The notes under the pieces: generated by a model | The model's database searches: none | What the model was told of the DNA's origin: nothing | Seen by the model: only the letters and a program-made list of their open reading frames with translations | Part shown: piece after piece, positions 1-11,801 of the stretch | How the letters are laid out: each line of letters opens with the position of its first letter | Position numbering within the stretch: the stretch's first letter is position 1 | Made by a program: the position numbers and the translations under genes | Source: Acidobacteriota bacterium | GTDB taxonomy: Bacteria > Acidobacteriota > Thermoanaerobaculia > Multivoradales > UBA5704 | Assembly: GCA_046765915.1 (NCBI GenBank) | Contig: JBKPTH010000063.1 | Span: 4,009-68,008, forward strand | Length of the DNA stretch: 64,000 bases | Reading direction: 5' to 3'

Positions 1-2383
1 GAGACGTCCATTGTTCCCAGAGAATTTGCCACCGCAGGCGATTGTGCGTGTCCAGGCGGGCCGCGTTCTTACCCGGCGGGCGGGTCAGACTCTCGATTTC
101 GCGAGTGAGAGAGGCGCCGCAGATCATCAGCTCGACCCAGAGCAGTATCAGTCGGCGCACTCGCGGGTTCAGCTGGCGCGGCACTCCTGCCGCGTCGATG
201 GCGTCGAGCCCCTGGCGGACGGCGCTGAGACCTCCTTTCAAGTCGTTGACCATGCGGGCGATGAGCCTGGCTTTTTTCTCGTCCCAGGCGCCCGGTTCTC
301 TCCCGGGTGTGAGCGCGTGGATTTCAGTGCTCTGGAGAAGGAGACGCTCGACGCGGAGCTGGGCGCGCAGCTCGTAGAGGAAGATCCACCATTCGACGTT
401 GCGCCGCGCCTCGGCGAGAGTGAGCCCCGCCTGATCCAGGGATTCTTCGGCCCGGGTCAGGCGTCCGTCCGCTCGCTGGAGAGCGACCTCCAGCTCCTCG
501 CCCCAGTCCTCGATCTCGGCTATGCGGTCGGGAGCCCAGTGCGCAAGGGAAAGCCGCCGTGCAGCGGCGAGATCTTGCGGCCAGGAAGGTCCCTTCCTGA
601 GATCGGCCAATGCGCGGTCGATCTGGCGGCGATCGAGCGTCTCATCCCCGCCCTTTGGGGCTCGGTCTCCCAGCAGGCAGAGGCACCCCTCTGTCGATAG
701 CGTCTCGAGGTCGTCCCGATCCCGGCAACCCTCTAGCAGCCTGCGCTCGCAAGCCTCCGACAACACGTGGTCGGCGCGAAGCAGGAGGCACTCGGCGAGG
801 TGCAACAGGTTTACGGCGAACATTTCCCGGTCGGCGCCCGTCCTGGGGACCACGCCGGACTGGGCCAGGTCCAGCTCTCGATGGGCGGTCTTGAAGTCAC
901 CGAGCAGGGTTGCCGCCCTTCCGCGGAGGGAATGGAAATAGGATCTCTGGCGGTAATAATCCGATCCCGCGCTCCACTCGACGACTTGCAGGCCTCGTGC
1001 ACAGATTTTCAGGGCCTCTCGCGAGCTCTTCTCGACCTGCCGGTGTTGGTCGAGAGAATCTCCGCGCGCCTCCATGGAATTCACGGCCAGGAGCTGATCG
1101 GCGGTGTACCGGAGCCGGCGCAGCTCCATGGCGCAGATATCCGGCGAGGACTCGATCCGAGGAAGATGCGGCGTGACGATCCCTTTGACGATGCGCTCGA
1201 TATCTTCCATGCCTTCATCGTCGCGCAGGCTGCGCCGGCCGGCCCAGATATCACAGAGGTACTTGACCACCTTCCGGCGAGTGAGGACGGGGATGTCCTC
1301 GGCCAGTGTCCGCTGTGCGATTGCAGCGGCGTTCTCCTTGAGCCATGCCGCGACGGCGGCGGCCGGCGAGCCGGGAGCCTCGATCCCGAGGAGCCGGCGA
1401 ATCTGCGCCCACCGCAGCTCCGCGCAAGCTTCGACGTCCAACCGGTCGCGGAGCACGCTGGCTTTCAAATCATCGAGCTGATCCCAAAGATGCTGGAGAT
1501 CGGCCGCGATCCGCTCTTCGCCTGGCGATTTCCATCGCGGATCCAGTTGGCGCGCGAACACGGCGCTCTGAGCATTGGCGCGGCCCGAGGCATCTCTGTC
1601 GAGGCAGAGATCGATCCGGAAACGCGGGGTGTCCTGGTTCTGCATCCAATCGACCCAATCGACCAGGGTATCGGCCGCCACGCCGCTGAGCAGGAGCTCG
1701 CGCTCCCGCTCGAGCACGAGGCTCAGGGAGCGCAATCGGGATTGCCGGAGGCGTGTGATCCGTGCCGGGTCCGGCGGCGGTGCTTCGAGAGGGTCGGTCT
1801 TGTCCAGAGGAAGGTCGATCTCGTCCAGACGCTTCCAGACGGTGGCGGGGACGCGATCGAGCTGTCCGCCCCCTGCAAACAGGAGCAGGCAGCGGTTGAG
1901 CTTGGTCAGGTAGCGGAGGCCCGAGGCCCGGTGGTAGATGTGCTCCAGCAGGGCGTGCAAGTCCCGCGAGGCCGCGTAGAGACTGGAGAGGTAGTAGTCG
2001 GCGACATGATCGTGAACGGTGGCCAGCAGAGCGATCCGTTCCAGAACCGCGGGTTCGACAAGCCGGTCCGCCTTCAATTCCTCCTTCCGCAACGCGTCGC
2101 CGCGCGTGCCGTCCTGGACCGAAGCGTAGATCCGATCCCGGATCTTGCGGCTCATCCAGTAGCTGCCTCCTTCGACTCTCAGGACGTAGCCCCGCTTTTC
2201 GAGCGTGTCGAGAAACGTCTCGACCCGCTCGTCCGAGCTCTGTTCCTCGGGGAGCGGCGGCAGGTACCTGGGAAGCAGGCTGCGCAGGGCGACGATGCTG
2301 CGGCGGCGGCGGAACACCGCGAGCAGGAGGAGCGCCTCCAGCTCAGGTCCGGGATCGGCCGGTTTGGGGACGCGTTCCTCCAT
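1..2383 (-). CDS. Large alpha-helical-repeat protein, partial (C-terminus lies beyond window start). Not in ORF track. Putative partner of the upstream SIR2 gene.
   Basis: Manual reverse-complement translation of frame (x mod 3 = 1) is open from 2614 down to position 1 and reads protein-like (MEERVPKPADPGPELEALLLLAVFRRRRSIVALRSLLPRYL...GYVLRVEGGSYWMSRKIRDRIYASVQDG...TLVDWVDWMQNQDTPRFRIDLCLDRD...). The + frame of ORFs 11..700/767..2581 has pos1 GC ~87% and pos3 ~78%, inverted relative to confirmed genes (speA pos1 ~65%, pos3 ~90%), and contains no TTA/CTA/TCA codons. ATG at 2383..2381. The track omitted it presumably because no stop falls inside the window. Confidence 0.6.
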   Translation of the reverse strand, partial: MEERVPKPADPGPELEALLLLAVFRRRRSIVALRSLLPRYLPPLPEEQSSDERVETFLDTLEKRGYVLRVEGGSYWMSRKIRDRIYASVQDGTRGDALRKEELKADRLVEPAVLERIALLATVHDHVADYYLSSLYAASRDLHALLEHIYHRASGLRYLTKLNRCLLLFAGGGQLDRVPATVWKRLDEIDLPLDKTDPLEAPPPDPARITRLRQSRLRSLSLVLERERELLLSGVAADTLVDWVDWMQNQDTPRFRIDLCLDRDASGRANAQSAVFARQLDPRWKSPGEERIAADLQHLWDQLDDLKASVLRDRLDVEACAELRWAQIRRLLGIEAPGSPAAAVAAWLKENAAAIAQRTLAEDIPVLTRRKVVKYLCDIWAGRRSLRDDEGMEDIERIVKGIVTPHLPRIESSPDICAMELRRLRYTADQLLAVNSMEARGDSLDQHRQVEKSSREALKICARGLQVVEWSAGSDYYRQRSYFHSLRGRAATLLGDFKTAHRELDLAQSGVVPRTGADREMFAVNLLHLAECLLLRADHVLSEACERRLLEGCRDRDDLETLSTEGCLCLLGDRAPKGGDETLDRRQIDRALADLRKGPSWPQDLAAARRLSLAHWAPDRIAEIEDWGEELEVALQRADGRLTRAEESLDQAGLTLAEARRNVEWWIFLYELRAQLRVERLLLQSTEIHALTPGREPGAWDEKKARLIARMVNDLKGGLSAVRQGLDAIDAAGVPRQLNPRVRRLILLWVELMICGASLTREIESLTRPPGKNAARLDTHNRLRWQILWEQWTS

Positions 2384-2577
2384 CCTGGGAGGGACGGTCC
2401 GGACGAGCTTCGACTGGGACGATTCAACGTCACTATAGAAGGTCGGCGGCTTGCCCTCGCCTTCGAGGTCGACCGAGAAGGCGAGAATCGAATTCTTGAG
2501 GTGTACGCCTGGGGAAGGCTCTGTTCCGTTCTCCCCTTCCCAGTCGCTTCGCCGGTGCGCGGCTCGAAACAGGGCGG

Positions 2578-4197
2578 TTAAGAACCCCTGCCGCGCGGGC
2601 TCCTTTCCGCGTGCTCAGGGTCGACCGACGGCGCAGGCGTGCTGTGGTGAGATGTCGGGGGCCGGCCGAAGGAGCTGACGGCGTTGAAGGCCAGCAGGTA
2701 CTGCCCGCGGCTCAAGGCCTCGTAGATCCGGCGGATGGGCTTCTCGAAGGTGGCCGGGTCAACGGCTGCCGCCTCATCGGCGGCCAGGCCGACCGGCAGG
2801 ACGATCGGCAGCAGGGATGGATCGTACTTCCGGATCTGGCGGAAGATCTCGACCACCACGTCCGTGATCGTGTGCATGGCCTCCAGGTCGATCCAGATAG
2901 GAATATGCGTTTCCGCCTTCCGCGAGGCGAGGCGCGCCAACTCGCGGGACGAGCCCAGACCGAAGTCGCCGGGGTCATCGAGGAAGAACTGGATCGGAGC
3001 CTTGTCGGTGGCGGGCGCTGTGTCCTCGATCGGCTGCCCGGGATCGATGGGCCGGGAGACGTGGGGAGTGTAGGGCCGAGAAGCCGGAGGATGCGAGCCC
3101 GTGATCCTGCTGTACAACTCCAGCAGAAGGGCGCCGGGATCCTGGATGCGCACCGGAGAGATGGCTCCAGGGTAGAGATCCACGAGTTCCTGGACCGGCT
3201 CCGGGCAGCGCGACTCGAAATGCATCCAGTAGACCACGGTGTCGCCAGCGTGATTGCCCGGGGAGCGGCGCTGAGCTTCGCCAACCACCAGCTCCACCAG
3301 GTCGGTGATCCTCCGGTCCCAGCCGCCCAGGCCCATGACGAGAAGGACCGGGCGGTCGGGAAGGTAGCTCCGCAACCGGGCCTTGCTCTCTTCATCCAAG
3401 GGGTAGTCCAGTGACTCGCCGACGCGTAAACCGAAGACGCCGCCATGGAGCTTGACGACGGAAAGCTCCTGTTGGATCAGGTCGGGATGCGGCAGCGCGG
3501 CATTGTGGGAAACCTCGTACACGATAGGCAGGTGCCCCTCGATCCGCAACGCCTCTTCGAGCAGGTTGTCGAAGTTCGTCGTCAGGAACAGGCGAATTCC
3601 CAGGACCGGCGACAAGAGGGCCAGGAACCGGTGCGAGGTCCCAGGTTGGCGGTGCTGCACGAGTTGGTGGAACAGGGTGTCCGCGTAGTCCGGGGTGGCG
3701 CGCGTCAGGTGGGCCAGCAGGGTTTTCCAATTACCCTTGAGGCTCCAAAGTGCAGGCTGCGGAATGGGGTTCTGTTGCTCCCGCAGCGTCTTGATGGTTG
3801 AGGCCAGCTTCTCGTCCAGGCGCCCGATGTCTTCAATCAACTCTTCCTGGATCAGACGGTGAAGAGTGCCGCGGTAGGTCTCGCCTTCTCCCGTGGCATG
3901 GACCCAGAGGTCGGCGTCGAGCTGGTTCGGATCCGGCCACCCGAAGCTGCGCAGGTACCAGCTCGGATCCTTGCGGAAGCTCCGCCGGTCCGACGGCATT
4001 TCGCCCTGGCTCTTGGGGTTGTAGAGTCCCGTGCGGATGAAATACTCGACTTTGGCGAGATATTGAGTGAGGGACGACAAGGCGAGAATTCCGGATTCGA
4101 TCGAGAAGCCTGCACCGACCAGAGGAATGAACTCCCGTCCCTGATCGGAGGCTGCGATAAGCTCCCGAACCACCTCCAATTGCGACTTCGCGGGCAC
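2578..4197 (-). CDS. SIR2_2-family (DHS-like NAD-binding) protein, putative NADase effector
   Basis: Motifs GAGFSIESGI (GAGxS NAD-binding), TTNFD (TTNYD-like) and VVKLHGG (catalytic His) in SIR2 order. GTG start at 4197 is preceded by GGAGAGGGAG SD (spacing 5). The listed 739-aa ORF N-terminus overlaps gltX in another frame and is not real. GC3 looks lower than in core genes. Confidence 0.7.
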   Translation of the reverse strand: MPAKSQLEVVRELIAASDQGREFIPLVGAGFSIESGILALSSLTQYLAKVEYFIRTGLYNPKSQGEMPSDRRSFRKDPSWYLRSFGWPDPNQLDADLWVHATGEGETYRGTLHRLIQEELIEDIGRLDEKLASTIKTLREQQNPIPQPALWSLKGNWKTLLAHLTRATPDYADTLFHQLVQHRQPGTSHRFLALLSPVLGIRLFLTTNFDNLLEEALRIEGHLPIVYEVSHNAALPHPDLIQQELSVVKLHGGVFGLRVGESLDYPLDEESKARLRSYLPDRPVLLVMGLGGWDRRITDLVELVVGEAQRRSPGNHAGDTVVYWMHFESRCPEPVQELVDLYPGAISPVRIQDPGALLLELYSRITGSHPPASRPYTPHVSRPIDPGQPIEDTAPATDKAPIQFFLDDPGDFGLGSSRELARLASRKAETHIPIWIDLEAMHTITDVVVEIFRQIRKYDPSLLPIVLPVGLAADEAAAVDPATFEKPIRRIYEALSRGQYLLAFNAVSSFGRPPTSHHSTPAPSVDPEHAERSPRGRGS

Positions 4198-4301
4198 GGT
4201 TCTCCCTCTCCGATCCCCCTTGGGCGATCTCAACAGACAGGTTGCGTACGAGCGAAAAATAGTAGCAGGAAAGGGAGGCTGAAGCGACCAGACGAGCACG
4301 G

Positions 4302-5741
4302 TCAGCCTGACCGCATGAACGCGATGAAGCGCCCCAGCCGCCGATCCGCCGCTTCGCGGCCCAGGACCTCGACGAGATCGAAGAGCGGCGGCCCGGCCGC
4401 GGCGGCCGAGAGGGCCATGCGGGTGGGGTGGATCAGCACGGCCGGCTTGATCCCCCGCTCCTCCGCCAGCGACCGCAGCTCGGCCTCCAGCGTCTCCTTG
4501 TCGAAGCGCGGCAGTCTGGCGTAGCGCTCCCGCAGCGCCTCCAGGCGTTCCGGCAGGTCCGGATCTTTCACCCACTTGGCGGCGGCCGCCGGGTCGTACG
4601 CCAGCTCTTCCTGGAAGAAATACGCGACGGCGCCGGCCAGCTCCTTCAAGGTTTGAGCCCGGGTGCGGTGCAGCTCCAGGGCCGCCGTCAGACGCTCGCG
4701 GTCGGCGTCCTTCAGGCCGGCCTGCTCGAGGAAGGGCTCCAGATGCGGCCATAGCTCCTGGAGGCTCAGGCGCGACATGTACTGCGCGTTCATCCACCAG
4801 AGCTTCTCGCGGTCGAAGACGGCGGCCGAGGCGTTCAGCCGCTCGACGGAAAAGGCGGCGATCATCTCCTCCCGTGTCATGATCTCCCGCTCGTCCCCCG
4901 GGTTCCAGCCGAGCAGGGCGAGGAAGTTGTAGAGCGCCTGCGGCAGGATGCCCTCGTTGCGGAACTCCTCGACCGAGGTGGCGCCGTAGCGCTTGGAGAG
5001 GCGCTTCTTGTCCGGCCCCAGGATCAGCGGCAGATGTCCGAACGTGGGAACCGTGCCGCCCAGGGCCTGGAAGAGCGGGATGTGCTTGGGCGTGTTCGAG
5101 AGATGGTCCTCGCCGCGCAGCACGTGGGTGATCCGCATGTCGATGTCGTCCACGACGACGGACATGTGATACGTCGGATTGCCGTCGGAGCGCAGGAGGA
5201 TGAAATCGTCGAGCGCGTCCGGCGGAAAGTCCATGTCGCCGCGCACGAGGTCGTGAAAACGGATGTTGTCGTCCGGCATGCGGAAGCGGACGGCGAACGG
5301 CTGGCCGGCGGCCAGGCGCCGCTCGCTCTCCTCGGGCGAGAGCCGCAGGCAGGTGCGGGGATAGCGGAAGGCCTCGCCCCGCTTCTGGGCCTCCTCGCGC
5401 TGGGCGTCGAGCTCCGCGGGCGTGCAGAAGCAGCGGTAGGCCTTGCCCTGTGCCAGCAGCTCCTCGGCGCGCTCGTGGTGGCGGGGGAGCCGCTCGCTCT
5501 GCAGGAACGGCCCTTCGTCCCAGACGACGCCGATCCAGGCGAGGGCGGACTGGATCTGCCGCGTCATCGCCTCGTCAGAGCGCTCCTTGTCCGTGTCCTC
5601 GATGCGCAGCACGAAGGCGCCGCCGGCGCTCTGCCGCAGCAGATCGTTGTAGATCGCGGTGCGGGCGCCGCCCACGTGCAGGAAGCCGGTGGGCGAGGGC
5701 GCGAAGCGGACCCGCACGGGGCCGTGGATGGCGGTGCTCAT
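4302..5741 (-). CDS. gltX: Glutamate--tRNA ligase
   Basis: PSPTGFLHVGGARTAIYN (HIGH-type class I motif) and KRLSKRYG (KMSKS-type) present. Length 479 aa. Confidence 0.9.
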   Translation of the reverse strand: MSTAIHGPVRVRFAPSPTGFLHVGGARTAIYNDLLRQSAGGAFVLRIEDTDKERSDEAMTRQIQSALAWIGVVWDEGPFLQSERLPRHHERAEELLAQGKAYRCFCTPAELDAQREEAQKRGEAFRYPRTCLRLSPEESERRLAAGQPFAVRFRMPDDNIRFHDLVRGDMDFPPDALDDFILLRSDGNPTYHMSVVVDDIDMRITHVLRGEDHLSNTPKHIPLFQALGGTVPTFGHLPLILGPDKKRLSKRYGATSVEEFRNEGILPQALYNFLALLGWNPGDEREIMTREEMIAAFSVERLNASAAVFDREKLWWMNAQYMSRLSLQELWPHLEPFLEQAGLKDADRERLTAALELHRTRAQTLKELAGAVAYFFQEELAYDPAAAAKWVKDPDLPERLEALRERYARLPRFDKETLEAELRSLAEERGIKPAVLIHPTRMALSAAAAGPPLFDLVEVLGREAADRRLGRFIAFMRSG

Positions 5742-8102: not shown

Positions 8103-8675
8103 ATGAAAACAATGGCGCCCGTCGTGGATCCCCTGATCGACCGGCTGCGCGAGGCGGTGATGCTGGGCGATATCGCCGCCGTCACCGCGCGCATCAAGGG
8201 CGATCTCGAGTCGTTCATCCCCGCCGAGGGACTGACCCTGCCGGAGCACTTCCGCCAGGCCAGGCCGGACCGCTACGCGCGGCGGCTCCTCTACCGCGAT
8301 CCCGATCTCGGCTTCACGGCGCTCGTCATGACCTGGGGACCGGGGCAGCGTACGGCGCTCCACGACCACGCGGGCATCTGGTGCGTCGAGGGCGTGGTCG
8401 AGGGCAACATGGAGGTGACGCGCTACGAGCTGACGGAGGAGGGGGAGGATGGGATCTGCCATTTCGTCGAGCGCGGCAAGGTACCCGCCCGGGCCGGCAC
8501 GGCGGGAGCGCTGATCCCGCCCTTCGAGCACCATGTGCTGGCCAACGCGCGGCCCGATCAGGCTTCGCTCACCCTCCACGTCTACGGCGGCGAGATGACT
8601 CACTGCGACATCTTCGAGCCGCTCGGCGACGGCCTCTACCGGCGATGTACGAGGCAGCTCAGTTATGACGAGTAG
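8103..8675 (+). CDS. Cysteine dioxygenase type I-like cupin
   Basis: LHDHAGIWCVEGVVEGNMEV matches the CDO HDH...C motif. Cupin size (190 aa). ATG 8 nt after GAGGAGA, immediately downstream of speA stop. Confidence 0.72.
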   Translation: MKTMAPVVDPLIDRLREAVMLGDIAAVTARIKGDLESFIPAEGLTLPEHFRQARPDRYARRLLYRDPDLGFTALVMTWGPGQRTALHDHAGIWCVEGVVEGNMEVTRYELTEEGEDGICHFVERGKVPARAGTAGALIPPFEHHVLANARPDQASLTLHVYGGEMTHCDIFEPLGDGLYRRCTRQLSYDE

Positions 8676-9087
8676 GCCCGTTTTTCGGGTCAAGGCTGAG
8701 CACGGCGAGGTCGGGAAAGTATTGGCGCAGGTATCCGCGGTCTTTGGCAGCGAGACGGTCGGCCTGCACTTTGGCGTGGGCAGCGATCAAGAAGTCGGGG
8801 ATCAGGTGCTCTCGCGGTCCGCCCTCCGCACGATATCGCTTGAAGGTATGCCCTGCGAGCCAAGCCGCCTCGGCCCCGATCGGATCGAGATGAGCACCTA
8901 AATCCGCCAACACCTCGTCAAGCTCGGCTCGACTCTCAAAGGCAGGAGTTATCTCGGCATAGACGACCTCGCACAGCACCAGCAAGCCCTGGCGCCGCGC
9001 CTGGATCAAGATCTCCATCCAGTCCTCGGCACCAGGCTCCTGGTTGAACACTGTCAGGAGCGCCGACGCATCGAGGGCGAGCTTCAC
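8659..9087 (-). CDS. vapC: PIN-domain toxin VapC
   Basis: MKLALDASALL PIN N-terminus. 142 aa. GTGA overlap with upstream antitoxin stop. Confidence 0.8.
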   Translation of the reverse strand: MKLALDASALLTVFNQEPGAEDWMEILIQARRQGLLVLCEVVYAEITPAFESRAELDEVLADLGAHLDPIGAEAAWLAGHTFKRYRAEGGPREHLIPDFLIAAHAKVQADRLAAKDRGYLRQYFPDLAVLSLDPKNGPTRHN

Positions 9088-9326
9088 TGGTCCCTCTCAC
9101 CGACACGGCCACGAGTCTCGTCGAGCCACTCATCGGAGGTTTTCTTCAGCCGGCCGCGGGTACGACCGATAACCGCCCGCATCGCCTCTTCGTCGAAAAC
9201 CGGCACCGCCAGGACATATGGCGCCTTCTCGTCGAACTCGAGGACTTGGCCGGCTTGCAGACCGAGACGCCGCCGAATCGCCGTCGGAATGGTGACCTGG
9301 CCTTTGGACGTAAGCGTGGCTTTCAT
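9084..9326 (-). CDS. vapB: AbrB/SpoVT-type antitoxin VapB
   Basis: MKATLTSKGQVTIPTAIRRRLGL swapped-hairpin motif. Alternative TTG start at 9332. Confidence 0.72.
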   Translation of the reverse strand: MKATLTSKGQVTIPTAIRRRLGLQAGQVLEFDEKAPYVLAVPVFDEEAMRAVIGRTRGRLKKTSDEWLDETRGRVGERDQ

Positions 9327-9393
9327 ACCCAAAGCGTAATACGACGCAGTAAGGAATACAAGTAAGGAGTTGCCGGTGACTCTCTAGAGGTTG

Positions 9394-9870
9394 CGCAGAT
9401 CCGTTGGAAGCCTTCAATGGGCCTTTGGAGGCTTCCAACGAGTCATTGTACCTTCCAACGGCTCACCGGAAATCTTCGCTGGGCTTCGGTTTCTTCCCAT
9501 GGGCCGCTGGAAGTCTCGGCGGCGCGTTGAAAGCCTTCGACGGCTCATCGGAAATCTTCAAGAGTCGTCGAAAGTGCCGGTAAGCCGTTGGAAGCTCCCA
9601 AAGGGGCGTTGGAAGCCTCCACGAGGCGCCGAAGATCTCCAATGGCCCGTTGAAGGCTTTCGATGAGGTGTTGGAAGGAGCGATGGCCCTTTGGAAGCTT
9701 CCAAGGGTACGCCGAAGACTTCCAAGGAGCCGTCGAAGATCTCCGATGATCCGTTGGAGACTTCCAAACAACGTTGAAGACCTACAATGGCCCGTTGGAG
9801 CCTCCCATGGAGCTTTGGAGGTTTCCGGCGCGCCATTGAAAGTCTCCAAGAGCCGTTGTAAGCTTGGAAT
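9394..9870. repeat. Tandem array of ~23 degenerate 21-bp units, each containing a dyad (consensus CGTTGGAAGCCTCCAANGGNC; ideal unit CCCTTTGGAAGCTTCCAAGGG)
   Basis: Read directly: 21-bp periodicity. TTGGAAG(N0-2)CTTCCAA palindromes. No unique spacers. Stops in all frames across parts of the array. Confidence 0.7.
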
Positions 9871-9871
9871 G

Positions 9872-9904
9872 AAGCAAAAAGGGGAGCGTGCTGGGGGCAC
9901 GCTC
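9872..9904 (-). terminator. Rho-independent terminator of upstream hypothetical gene
   Basis: Minus strand reads GGGAGCGTGC-CCCCAG-GCACGCTCCC followed by CTTTTTGC, directly after the TAA at 9925. Confidence 0.6.
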
Positions 9905-9924
9905 CCGGAATCCTGCCTTACGGA

Positions 9925-10331
9925 TTACTGCTCATCGGTGTCAGGAGCCGGCTGAGGGCTCGCGACGGACTGCGGTGGCGGGACGTCGGGGGTCTCGGCC
10001 GGTTTCGCTTTGCGGCCGCGGAACGGCTGCAGGCCGAACTCCGTCAGCTTCTCGGCGCGGCTGCCGTAGCGATGCTTGAGGCCGCCTCGCATCACGGTCG
10101 CCAGCTTCGCGCCCTCGATCATCACCGTCTGCAGGCGCTTCGAGGTCTCCTGCTTGGCGGCCTGGTGAGCCGCCTGCTGCTTGGTGAGCTCGCGCGCCTC
10201 CTGGAGCAGCTTTCCAGGTCGATGCGGAGGAGCTCGAGCTGAGGCAGCTCGGAGGCGTTCGCGGCCGCGGAGGCCGTGATCTCTTCCCACTCCTTGAGGT
10301 GGTCGGCGTAACGACTCTTCTTGTCAGGCAC
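9925..10331 (-). pseudogene. Hypothetical coiled-coil protein interrupted by a -1 frameshift in a 3-nt A/T run (~10205-10215)
   Basis: Two overlapping minus ORFs (9925..10290 and 10122..10367) read as one coherent protein if one base is added in GGAAAGC: MPDKKSRYADHLKEWEEITASAAANASELPQLELLRIDLE|KLLQEARELTKQQAAHQAAKQ... GTG start at 10331 with AAAGGAG SD. Confidence 0.45.
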
Positions 10332-10638
10332 CTTCTCACTCCTTTCGGACCTTCGGGTCCAGTCCACTGACGCCTTTGTGGCGCCAGAGTCTCGATTTCG
10401 AAGCTCTTCCAGGGTACGAAGGTTGAACCTGCAGAGTCTAGCTTCTGAGAAAGCTCTTGTCGGCCGAAGATATTACAGGTCAGCATAATCCATTGAGGAG
10501 CAATGACTTAGCGCGATTCGCTCAAAAGCTCCAGGGGGGCGAGATTCGCCCCGAGGCGGGTGAAATTCCACCCGTTGCGGTTTGGTCGGCGCGCCGTAGG
10601 CCGCGGCTGATCCCACTCGGGAGATTTGCCGATTCGAC

Positions 10639-11016
10639 GTGTTTGTCAGCTATGCTGCAAAGGATAGCGAAGTGGCGAAGGAGCTGCAGCGAGCCCTCCA
10701 GAGAAAGGGTTTAGATTGCTTTCTCGCTGAGAAAGATTTAACCGCTGGCAAGGTTTGGCGCGAGGAGATAAGAGATGCGTTGCACCTGTCACGTGTGTTT
10801 GTGTTATTGCTGACCCCAAATTCGGTGACGAGCAAGTGGGCCATGTGTGAGGCTGGTGCCTTCTGGGCGCTCCGAAGGCCCATCGTCCCGGCTTATATGT
10901 TCGTTAATATAGGCGACGTTCCCGAGATAATATCCGAATATCAATGTAGGCGCATAGAATCTTACAGTGATCGAACTGATTTCGTTAGGGAAGTATATTC
11001 TCTCTGCCGTGGATGA
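10639..11016 (+). CDS. TIR-domain protein (standalone, 125 aa)
   Basis: MFVSYAAKDSEVAKELQRALQRKGLDCFLAEKDL...FVLLLTPNSVTSKWAMCEAG matches the bacterial TIR pattern F-SY-D...L...G...F-D...W...I...S...VLL-S-NS-S-W-E, including the conserved Glu. About 50% GC versus about 68% background. Confidence 0.8.
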   Translation: MFVSYAAKDSEVAKELQRALQRKGLDCFLAEKDLTAGKVWREEIRDALHLSRVFVLLLTPNSVTSKWAMCEAGAFWALRRPIVPAYMFVNIGDVPEIISEYQCRRIESYSDRTDFVREVYSLCRG

Positions 11017-11282
11017 TCGAGCAGGTGGGAGGGCTGCATGCAAATATCACAACGCATCGGTAGGGCGGCCAATCCTCGGAGCGAGCACTGAGGCGAGCAG
11101 ACCGCTGAAAGCGCCTATCCGGCCACAAATGGCAGGGCCGGAGGGAAGCTCCCTGCTGGGAACCGCGCTAACCGGTCTCTGGATCGGAGCTTCGCGGACG
11201 CATCGCGGAAAGCTGCCACAAACCACGCGTAGGCAGTCCAGAGCTCCTGACGCACCGACTTGTCTCACCGCATGGAACAACG

Positions 11283-11308
11283 GCGCCGGTGACTTCTTCG
11301 GCCGCATC
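11283..11308. repeat. 26-bp direct repeat, copy 1 (GGCGCCGGTGACTTCTTCGGCCGC)
   Basis: 25/26 identical to copy at 11724..11749. Both encode GAGDFFGR in frame. Confidence 0.6.
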
Positions 11309-11384
11309 GTATCGGTAGGGGCAGCCGCCGTCCTGTTCCGAGCGTGGTAGGATTTTTATGGAGAGACGCAACCACGGAGGTATC

Positions 11385-11585
11385 ATGGATCTGGAAGTTG
11401 TCGAGAAGGAAGTCGCAAGCTGGGCGCCGGAGGAGCAGGATCGCCTCGCAGCGTTTTTGACCGTACTCCGCTTGAAGAGAACACCGGACCATGTCCAAGA
11501 GCTGACCCGGCGCCTGGACGATCGCAATCCCACCAATTGGGTGAGCTTGGACGAAGTCAGGTCGCTTCGCGAACACCGTGGATGA
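11385..11585 (+). CDS. Small hypothetical protein, possible antitoxin of a RelE/ParE-like remnant pair
   Basis: GGAGG SD 6 nt before the ATG. ATGA overlap with the next small ORF. 66 aa. Confidence 0.35.
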   Translation: MDLEVVEKEVASWAPEEQDRLAAFLTVLRLKRTPDHVQELTRRLDDRNPTNWVSLDEVRSLREHRG

Positions 11586-11719
11586 AGCTCTCATACGACG
11601 TCTTCATCCGTCACGAGGTCTTCCGAACTCTTCAGGGGGCCAGCGCTAGCGACCAGGAGCGCGTCTTAGACGCCGACAAGGAAGTTCGAGTCGTCGATCT
11701 CGCTAACGCCGAAGGATGA
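11582..11719 (+). CDS. Truncated RelE/ParE-like toxin remnant (45 aa)
   Basis: MKLSYDVFIRHEVFRTLQGAS...ERVLDADKEV resembles a RelE/ParE N-terminus. Truncated just before direct-repeat copy 2. Confidence 0.3.
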   Translation: MKLSYDVFIRHEVFRTLQGASASDQERVLDADKEVRVVDLANAEG

Positions 11720-11723
11720 CAGC

Positions 11724-11749
11724 GGGCGCCGGCGACTTCTTCGGCCGCG
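11724..11749. repeat. 26-bp direct repeat, copy 2
   Basis: GGCGCCGGCGACTTCTTCGGCCGC. See copy 1. Confidence 0.6.
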
Positions 11750-11801
11750 CCGGGGCTCGGCGAGATTCTAACGCCCTGGTCAGATAGAATCGCGCACCGT
11801 C

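What the first reader, a model, noticed from the sequence alone, without database searches (positions are those of the whole stretch)
1..4197. Candidate two-gene SIR2-based module: SIR2_2 protein plus large helical partner immediately downstream of gltX
The 539-aa protein has the SIR2_2 hallmarks in order: GAGFS...SGI, TTNFD and KLHGG. This family supplies the NADase effector in several anti-phage systems (ThsA, DSR1/2, SIR2-HerA). The partner is neither HerA, STAND, pAgo nor TIR. It looks like one long helical-repeat protein, an arrangement I do not recognise as a named system. It could be a split DSR-like or a new SIR2 pairing. The two genes are co-directional with a 195-bp gap. The SIR2 gene has a strong SD (GGAGAGGGAG) and more A/T-ending codons than gltX or speA, hinting at acquisition. 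It may equally be a housekeeping regulator pair, and I cannot tell from sequence alone.
Basis: partly seen in the sequence, partly recalled or inferred. Interest (0 to 1): 0.7.

Follow-up and report, generated by a model that had tools for sequence, protein, structure and literature searches.

The report
Frameshift-split single SIR2 immune-sensor gene
The two "genes" are one 1,460-residue SIR2 (NAD-degrading type) sensor gene, broken by a one-base deletion, that sits in a 4.5-kb segment missing from this bacterium's closest relatives; it belongs to a sizeable uncharacterised family resembling known single-protein anti-phage sensors.

Summary
The ORFs, SIR2_2 motifs, Shine-Dalgarno site and low GC3 are all real. 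The two-gene reading is not supported.

- **One gene in relatives.** Every full-length homologue (1,336-1,951 aa; 367 clusters at 50% identity) is a single polypeptide.
- **The gap is coding.** The "195-bp gap" carries conserved family motifs in the partner's frame. That frame lies -1 from the SIR2 frame, and spacing matches relatives exactly, so one base was lost between window 2581 and 2614.
- **The break is damaging.** It cuts a central alpha/beta domain in half. No start codon, promoter, slippery site or RNA structure rescues it, so this copy is probably a very recent pseudogene. It keeps 68 of 69 family-conserved residues.
- **Architecture.** SIR2, then an alpha/beta domain with no Walker A, then a winged helix, then a ~700-residue TPR solenoid. 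This is laid out like Avs5, DSR2 and SAMD9. Outside the SIR2 core, nothing matches PADLOC, Pfam, NCBIfam or PDB sequences.
- **Acquisition.** The gene lies in a 4.5-kb segment at the 3' end of gltX. Thermoanaerobaculia relatives with 94% and 88% identical GltX lack it.

Most likely function: a trigger-activated NADase acting in abortive infection. This is inferred, not shown.

The parts
4202..4211 (-). Shine-Dalgarno-like GGAGAGGGAG, 4 nt upstream of the GTG start
   Evidence: Read directly from the sequence.
2578..4197 (-). Upstream ORF, 539 aa. It holds the SIR2 domain, the first half of the central alpha/beta domain, and at most 11 out-of-frame residues (from the shift, which lies after His-526, to the TAA).
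3103..4140 (-). SIR2_2 domain, residues ~20-365. GAG lies at 4108-4116, catalytic-type Asn208 at 3574-3576 and His251 at 3445-3447. There is a P38L change at 4084-4086 in the near-invariant GIP motif.
   Evidence: Pfam 29.2 bits. PADLOC SIR2 models hit. Foldseek finds SPARSA, ThsA, KomC, DSR2 and HerA-associated SIR2 domains. Conservation.
2653..3000 (-). First half of the central P-loop-less alpha/beta domain (three strands). The FGRPPTxHH family signature sits at its end.
   Evidence: Models. No GxxxxGK[ST] in any of 147 family proteins. The loop at the P-loop position is variable.
2581..2614 (-). Frameshift zone. One base was lost here. It is bounded by the TGA of the partner frame (2615-2617) and the TAA of the SIR2 frame (2578-2580).
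   Evidence: tblastn of fused homologue P0002 switches frame between 2644 and 2605. Frames and spacing. The HH-to-FL spacing is 20 residues, as in P0002.
2384..2614 (-). The "195-bp gap". It is the coding remnant, in the partner frame, of the second half of the central domain (one helix, two strands, with motifs FLxxLxRAAHR and LKDSILAFSxD). No ATG, GTG or TTG precedes 2383 in this frame.
   Evidence: In this frame GC3 is 0.74 and GC2 is 0.52.
1..2383 (-). Downstream ORF, the "partner". 794 aa lie in the window, and it is 855 aa in full in L001. The ATG has a poor ribosome-binding site and aligns with a non-conserved linker residue.
2105..2350 (-). Winged-helix domain, with the FRRRRS and YWMSxxxRxxIY motifs
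   Evidence: Models. Weak wHTH Pfam hints.
1..2104 (-). TPR-like alpha-solenoid, the presumed sensor. It continues past the window edge.
1..4308 (.). Strain-specific 4,539-bp segment, of which 4,308 bp lie in the window. It carries only this gene and replaces 74 bp in the closest relative. Its left edge is at the gltX stop codon.
   Evidence: blastn of L001 against L031. Gene orders. No terminal repeats.
4302..5741 (-). gltX, the conserved flank. It is 479 aa here and 482-495 aa in most relatives.

Best explanation
Window 1-4197 holds one gene, not two.

**What it is (shown).** It is a roughly 1,460-residue single-chain protein of an uncharacterised family. Its order of domains is:
1. an N-terminal SIR2_2 NADase-type domain;
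2. a central Rossmann-like alpha/beta domain with no Walker A motif;
3. a winged helix;
4. a TPR-like solenoid of about 700 residues.

In this genome a one-base deletion between 2581 and 2614 puts the 3' two thirds in the -1 frame. Gene callers therefore see a 539-aa ORF, a 194-nt "gap" and an 855-aa ORF. The gene sits in a 4.5-kb segment at the 3' end of gltX. The closest Thermoanaerobaculia relatives lack that segment.

**State of this copy (inferred).** The break lies inside the central domain, and about 80 conserved residues cannot be translated. This copy is most likely a very recent pseudogene.

**Function of the intact family (inferred from architecture).** It most likely acts as an Avs5/DSR2-like immune sensor. 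The TPR solenoid would bind a phage-derived trigger. The P-loop-less core and winged helix would drive oligomerisation without nucleotide hydrolysis. The clustered SIR2 domains would then deplete NAD+ and abort the infection.
For: **One gene split by a frameshift.**
- Fused homologues P0002 and P0004 span the junction. tblastn of P0002 changes frame between 2644 and 2605.
- Four full-length homologues of 1,336-1,439 aa align colinearly with the reconstructed protein. The motifs in the gap align too.
- A profile of the partner region finds 367 cluster representatives. Nearly all are 1,350-1,950 aa, with the match at about residues 550-1500 and SIR2 motifs at the N-terminus.
- The gene is a single ORF in short-read MAGs and in a complete Singulisphaera genome.

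**The break is disruptive and unrescued.**
- It falls between strand 3 and the next helix of the central domain.
- The partner frame has no start codon between 2614 and 2384.
- There is no promoter or terminator in the gap.
- There is no canonical X_XXY_YYZ site (read from the sequence). RNA folding gives z = 0.59.

**The event is recent.**
- 68 of 69 columns conserved at 90% or more are retained.
- Two assemblies agree over 5,134 nt.

**Acquisition.**

**Immune-type SIR2.**

**STAND-like layout.**
Against: - No experiment exists for any family member.
- Neighbourhoods of family members are mostly housekeeping genes, not defence islands.
- Two Thermoanaerobaculia keep the gene in a syntenic position.
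- The central domain matches no STAND family by sequence. Its STAND-like status rests on a predicted model.
- Without a P-loop, the activation mechanism cannot simply be copied from Avs5.
- A functional split cannot be excluded from sequence alone. I could not inspect the reads.
- P38L in the GIP motif might already impair the SIR2 domain.
Confidence: 0.72

Rival explanations
1. A real, functional two-gene module. After the split, a SIR2 protein carrying half of the central domain and a winged-helix/TPR protein assemble non-covalently and still work.
For: Both ORFs are otherwise intact, and 68 of 69 conserved columns are kept. The upstream ORF has a strong SD. Split versions of fused defence proteins are known in general (my own knowledge).
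Against: No relative is organised this way. The 700-950-aa hits that could be checked are contig fragments. About 80 conserved residues, including two strands, would be missing from both products. The partner ATG has a poor RBS and aligns with a variable residue.
Confidence: 0.12
2. A sequencing or assembly artefact. The gene is intact in the organism.
For: The shift is a single base in a G+C-rich stretch. Long-read MAG contigs of relatives show several such breaks.
Against: The NCBI contig and an independent Logan k-mer assembly are identical over 5,134 nt, including the junction. The Logan contig runs through the site without a break. There is no long homopolymer at the site.
Confidence: 0.08
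3. Programmed -1 ribosomal frameshifting or transcriptional slippage yields the full-length protein, plus a short SIR2-only product.
For: The downstream frame is -1, the commoner direction for programmed frameshifts. An AAGGAG sequence lies inside the overlap zone. Contig L002 also breaks frame within about 10 codons of the same motif.
Against: There is no X_XXY_YYZ heptamer in the 36-nt overlap. There is no stable downstream structure (z = 0.59). L002's shift is +1, not -1, and that contig has further breaks. Reliably assembled relatives (short-read MAGs, a complete genome) are in one frame.
Confidence: 0.03
4. The family is not immune. It is a housekeeping or regulatory sirtuin-like enzyme that uses the TPR region as a scaffold.
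For: Neighbourhoods are housekeeping genes, and two Thermoanaerobaculia keep a syntenic position.
Against: Classical sirtuin models fail (PF02146 scores 11.2 bits against 24; NCBIfam deacylase 11 bits against 243). There is no Cys4 zinc ribbon; the ORF has one Cys. The nearest sequence and fold relatives are all immune NADases. The gene is present or absent among close relatives. It evolves faster than its neighbours, 52% against 63-83% identity.
Confidence: 0.12

Closest known systems
Avs5 (AVAST type 5; SIR2-STAND), e.g. EfAvs5 (PMC11897194, PMC12931631)
   Same: It is a single polypeptide with an N-terminal SIR2 NADase-type domain, a central alpha/beta domain with a winged helix, and a C-terminal sensor. 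It is encoded as a single stand-alone gene.
   Different: Avs5 needs Walker A K379 and Walker B D426 and binds ATP (PMC11897194). This family has no Walker A in any of 147 members, and the window has Asn at the Walker B position. No PADLOC or Pfam STAND model hits. Its sensor is a long TPR solenoid.
DSR2 (defence-associated sirtuin 2)
   Same: SIR2 is fused to a large helical-repeat sensor in one chain. The SIR2 folds match (8wyb, E 2e-5).
Inactive STAND (iSTAND, iSTAND2) modules of bacterial conflict systems (Kaur et al.; PMC8195603)
   Same: The same concept: a STAND-like module whose NTP-binding motifs have eroded, joined to effector and sensor domains.
   Different: Those modules act in MoxR-vWA ternary systems. 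This family is a stand-alone gene with a SIR2 effector. No sequence relationship could be tested here.
SAMD9/SAMD9L and MalT/PH0952-type STAND-TPR proteins
   Different: Those proteins have working P-loops and other effector or output domains. Similarity is at fold level only.
Two-gene SIR2 systems: Thoeris (ThsA/ThsB), SIR2-HerA (Nezha), SPARSA (SIR2-APAZ/pAgo)
   Same: Closest SIR2 domains by sequence and fold.
   Different: Their defining partners (TIR, HerA, pAgo) are absent. Here the "partner" is the rest of the same protein.

Membership tests
Pfam SIR2_2 (PF13289), NADase-type SIR2 | HMM score above the gathering threshold | tested here: met
   29.2 bits against 24.5, residues 203-324.
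Pfam SIR2_2 (PF13289), NADase-type SIR2 | GAG loop, the Asn of the TTNFD-type motif and the His of the HG motif | tested here: met
   G28-A29-G30, N208, D210 and H251 are invariant in A1 and at least 90% conserved in 50 sequences. P38 of the GIP motif is Leu here.
Classical sirtuin deacylases (PF02146) | HMM match and a Cys4 zinc ribbon | tested here: not met
   11.2 bits against 24. NCBIfam deacylase 11 bits against 243. The ORF has a single Cys.
Avs5 / AVAST type 5 | N-terminal SIR2 effector in the same chain as the sensor | tested here: met
   Fused in all full-length relatives.
Avs5 / AVAST type 5 | STAND NTPase with Walker A GxxxxGK[ST] and an acidic Walker B residue | tested here: not met
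   No Walker A in any of 147 proteins. The loop at that position is variable. The window has LLAFNAV at the Walker B position. No STAND Pfam hit in 22 members.
Avs5 / AVAST type 5 | Winged helix followed by a C-terminal sensor | tested here: met
   Model: winged helix at 229-307, then a helical solenoid; pLDDT 86.
STAND superfamily (fold level) | NBD-WHD-repeat architecture recognisable against solved STAND proteins | tested here: inconclusive
DSR2 | DSR2-type C-terminal sensor, or a PADLOC DSR2 model match | tested here: not met
   No DSR model appears among the PADLOC hits. Fold similarity to DSR2 is confined to the SIR2 domain.
Thoeris | An adjacent TIR (ThsB) gene and a SLOG/STALD domain on ThsA | tested here: not met
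   The ThsA models match only the SIR2 core. The partner has no TIR. The only TIR ORF is 6.4 kb away, beyond gltX and speA.
SIR2-HerA and SPARSA | A HerA ATPase or short pAgo/APAZ partner | tested here: not met
   The partner region gives zero PADLOC hits. Its fold is winged helix plus TPR.
Programmed -1 frameshift genes | A slippery heptamer, a stimulatory structure, and the shift conserved in homologues | tested here: not met
   No X_XXY_YYZ site. RNA z = 0.59. Relatives are in one frame, and the only nearby break is +1 in a long-read contig.
Anti-phage defence gene (generic genomic signature) | Presence or absence among close relatives, and atypical composition | tested here: met
   Absent from genomes with 94% and 88% identical GltX. 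GC3 is 0.79-0.82 against about 0.93.
Anti-phage defence gene (generic genomic signature) | Enrichment next to known defence genes | tested here: not met
   In the flanks of 7 loci, only protein kinases hit PADLOC models. One locus has an integrase. The sample is small.
Anti-phage defence gene (function) | NAD+ depletion and phage protection | not testable with these tools
   Needs experiments.

The most novel reading that the evidence does not exclude
The intact family would be an unnamed class of single-chain immune receptors. It has at least 367 clusters at 50% identity, in Acidobacteriota, Planctomycetota, Myxococcota and others. A SIR2 NADase would be controlled by a STAND-like core that has lost nucleotide binding altogether. 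Activation would then be nucleotide-independent: trigger binding to the TPR solenoid alone would cause oligomerisation. The invariant FGRPPTxHH motif might replace the P-loop functionally.
Probability: 0.35. Interest if true: 0.6.

Novelty: new variant of a known kind. Interest (0 to 1): 0.4.

Why it matters
- **For annotation.** Public gene calls list a 539-aa "SIR2" protein and an 855-aa hypothetical protein. Scans that look for new gene pairs could be misled by this. The pair is a frameshift artefact of one gene.
- **For biology.** The underlying family is fairly large and confined to poorly studied phyla. It is invisible to PADLOC, Pfam and NCBIfam beyond its SIR2 core. It combines an immune-type SIR2 with a STAND-like scaffold that has no P-loop. 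If it defends against phage, it would show how an NLR-like receptor can work without a nucleotide switch. It would also extend SIR2-based immunity to Acidobacteriota and Planctomycetota.
- **For this copy.** It illustrates rapid gain and decay of such genes.

Tried and rejected
- **Two-gene module.** Rejected because all relatives are fused and the gap is conserved coding sequence.
- **Naturally split relatives.** The 700-950-aa hits were considered. The one checked, P0019, lies on a 2.4-kb contig and is a fragment. Look-ups of the others were not possible.
- **Programmed frameshift.** No slippery site, no RNA structure, and the shift is not conserved.
- **Alternative start for an extended partner.** None exists.
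- **Promoter or terminator in the gap.** None found.
- **Known defence systems.** PADLOC, Pfam and NCBIfam hit only the SIR2 core.
- **PDB sequence searches.** The partner region and the central module gave zero hits.
- **Mobile-element signature.** No terminal direct or inverted repeats at the insertion edges.
- **Defence-island context.** Not seen in relatives.
- **L002's nearby frame break as evidence of a conserved shift.** Rejected, because it goes in the opposite direction and the contig is error-prone.
- **Thoeris-like pairing with the TIR ORF at 10639-11016.** Rejected on arrangement.
- **Technical note.** It was redone within the window.


Full report
**Observation**

All features lie on the minus strand.
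- gltX runs 5741..4302.
- A 539-aa ORF follows at 4197..2578, with a GTG start, GGAGAGGGAG four bases upstream and a TAA stop.
- After 194 nt, a frame opens at ATG 2383 and stays open to window position 1, 794 codons.
- An independent Logan assembly (L001) is identical to the window over 5,134 nt. It shows the second ORF is 855 aa and is followed by a fatty-acid desaturase gene.
- The first ORF passes the Pfam SIR2_2 threshold, 29.2 bits against 24.5.
- In PADLOC it hits only the SIR2 cores of pAgo-associated SIR2, PDC-S65 and ThsA. The second ORF hits nothing.
- GC3 is 0.815 and 0.79, against 0.93 for gltX and 0.95 for speA.

**One gene, not two**

- A search of 5.8 billion proteins with the SIR2 ORF found only seven relatives. 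The closest, P0002 (47% identity, 672 aa), and P0004 (905 aa) run past the end of the window ORF into sequence homologous to the start of the "partner".
- tblastn of P0002 against the window matches the SIR2 frame up to residue 542 (window 2644). It matches the partner frame from residue 557 (window 2605).
- Searching with the partner returned four proteins of 1,336-1,439 aa. One is annotated "SIR2 family protein" from a Thermoanaerobaculia MAG.
- A reconstructed 1,461-aa window protein aligns colinearly with these four at 40-45% identity. It was built from the SIR2 frame up to ...VDPEH and then the partner frame from ARGKE...
- Two conserved motifs, FLxxLxRAAHR and LKDSILAFSxD, fall inside the "195-bp gap".
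- The partner frame is -1 relative to the SIR2 frame. The spacing from the HH motif to the next motif is 20 residues, exactly as in P0002. The lesion is therefore a single lost base. It lies between the partner-frame TGA (2617-2615) and the SIR2-frame TAA (2580-2578).
- A profile of the partner region, scored against 1.84 billion representatives, found 367 proteins at E <= 1e-3 and 114 at E <= 1e-30. Almost all are 1,350-1,950 aa, with the match at about residues 550-1500. They carry GAGxS and NFD motifs at the N-terminus.
- Short hits are fragments. P0019, for example, lies on a 2.4-kb contig.
- In short-read MAGs and in the complete Singulisphaera sp. Ch08 genome the gene is a single ORF of 1,378-1,642 codons.

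**What the break does**

- A model of reconstructed residues 1-700 (pLDDT 71) places an alpha/beta domain after the SIR2 domain. Its strands are at 402-406, 432-437, 500-505, 572-577 and 600-603. A winged helix follows at 618-699.
- The frameshift, at about residues 520-530, falls between the third strand and the next helix. The fold is cut in two.
- The partner frame has no ATG, GTG or TTG between 2614 and 2384. About 80 conserved residues would therefore be missing from both products.
- The partner's ATG aligns with a variable linker residue and has a weak ribosome-binding site.
- The gap has no promoter or terminator.
- No X_XXY_YYZ slippery heptamer lies in the 36-nt overlap, and the downstream RNA is not unusually stable (z = 0.59).
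- A frame break near the same motif in contig L002 is +1, not -1. That contig is a long-read assembly with further breaks.
- Otherwise the window gene is pristine. It keeps 68 of the 69 columns that are at least 90% conserved across 49 relatives. The exception is P38L in the GIP motif.

I conclude this is a very recent inactivating frameshift. A functional split, a sequencing error and programmed frameshifting are less likely alternatives.

**Architecture of the family**

- A second model covers residues 390-1400 and used a 50-sequence alignment. It is confident, with pLDDT 86.1 and pTM 0.90. It shows the alpha/beta domain, the winged helix and an all-helical solenoid of about 700 residues.
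- Foldseek against the PDB gave nothing below E = 1e-3. The hits were generic TPR/HEAT proteins, SAMD9 at E 0.013 and Cdc6/Orc1 at E 0.076.
- The SIR2 domain is closest in fold to immune NADases: SPARSA (E 5e-8), ThsA, KomC, DSR2 and HerA-associated SIR2. By sequence it is closest to SPARSA SIR2.
- None of 147 family proteins has a Walker A motif. The equivalent loop varies in length and sequence. The window has Asn at the Walker B position.
- The central module matches no Pfam STAND family and no PDB sequence.
- What is conserved instead is IWIDL, RGxY, FGRPPTxHH and FRRRRS.

The layout therefore resembles Avs5 (SIR2, NOD, then sensor; PMC11897194). The core, however, is eroded and has no P-loop, reminiscent of the "inactive STAND" modules described by comparative genomics (PMC8195603).

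**Genomic context**

- GltX places the host in Thermoanaerobaculia, at 78-83% identity to named MAGs.
- In genomes with 94% identical GltX (GCA_044867135.1, GCA_044868925.1) and 88% identical GltX, the order is speA, gltX, desaturase, then a 561-aa gene. Only 19-36 bp separate gltX from the desaturase gene.
- blastn shows 92% and 91% identical flanks. A 4,539-bp segment (window 4308 to beyond the window start) replaces 74 bp. It has no terminal repeats.
- The gene is therefore accessory and, judging by its GC3, probably foreign.
- Elsewhere, family members sit among housekeeping genes with varied neighbours.
- Two Thermoanaerobaculia keep the gene in a syntenic position. There it is 52% identical, against 63-83% for its neighbours.

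**Mechanism**

*Shown:*
- the domain order;
- the conserved SIR2 catalytic-type residues;
- the absence of a P-loop;
- the frameshift;
- the presence/absence polymorphism.

*Inferred for intact family members:*
1. The TPR solenoid binds a trigger.
2. The core and winged helix oligomerise.
3. SIR2 depletes NAD+, and the infection aborts.

The window copy is probably inactive. For the family's function, the main rival is a non-immune regulatory role.

**Verdict**

SIR2-based, DSR-like and acquired are all correct. A two-gene system is not.
- The family is a new variant of a known kind, a single-chain SIR2 sensor with a STAND-like core that has no P-loop.
- Interest is moderate.

Noticed in passing
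window 8781-11790: A second strain-specific segment of 3.0 kb, with GC 0.53-0.60 against about 0.66. It replaces about 313 bp in the closest relative, L031. The relative keeps a 48-aa ORF that overlaps the 3' end of the PIN gene, which may be a remnant of it and would suggest a deletion in the relative.
   Followed up: partly
window 10639-11016 (+): A stand-alone 125-aa TIR-domain ORF in the low-GC segment. Pfam TIR_2 scores 4e-20, and PADLOC SAVED-TIR, PDC-S66 and ThsB models hit. It lies 6.4 kb from the SIR2 gene, separated by gltX, speA and a CDO_I gene. It is therefore not an operon partner.
   Followed up: partly
window 8659-9332 (-): A VapBC-like toxin-antitoxin pair. The PIN-domain ORF is at 8659-9087 (Pfam 2e-9). 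It overlaps by 4 nt an AbrB/MazE-type antitoxin ORF at 9084-9332.
   Followed up: partly
window ~9388-9838: A degenerate array of units of about 21 nt (60-78% identity, with spacings of 20-21 nt and multiples of that). It lies between the antitoxin and the TIR ORF. Its function is unknown.
   Followed up: no
window 4084-4086 (-): Leu replaces the near-invariant Pro of the SIR2 GIP motif; 48 of 49 relatives have Pro. It is the only departure among 69 highly conserved columns. It may be a first sign of relaxed constraint, or an independent impairment of the NADase.
   Followed up: partly
L002/L013, L003, L012: Family members in long-read (contig_N) metagenome assemblies carry several frame breaks and fragmented neighbouring genes. 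Short-read MAGs and a complete genome carry one ORF. These breaks are probably assembly indels. Public protein sets from these assemblies contain truncated family members such as P0003 and P0004.
   Followed up: partly
window 4302-4309 / L031 11433-11488: The edge of the inserted segment lies within a few bases of the gltX stop. GltX here is 479 aa and lacks the C-terminal tail of about 9-16 residues seen in relatives of 488-495 aa.
   Followed up: partly
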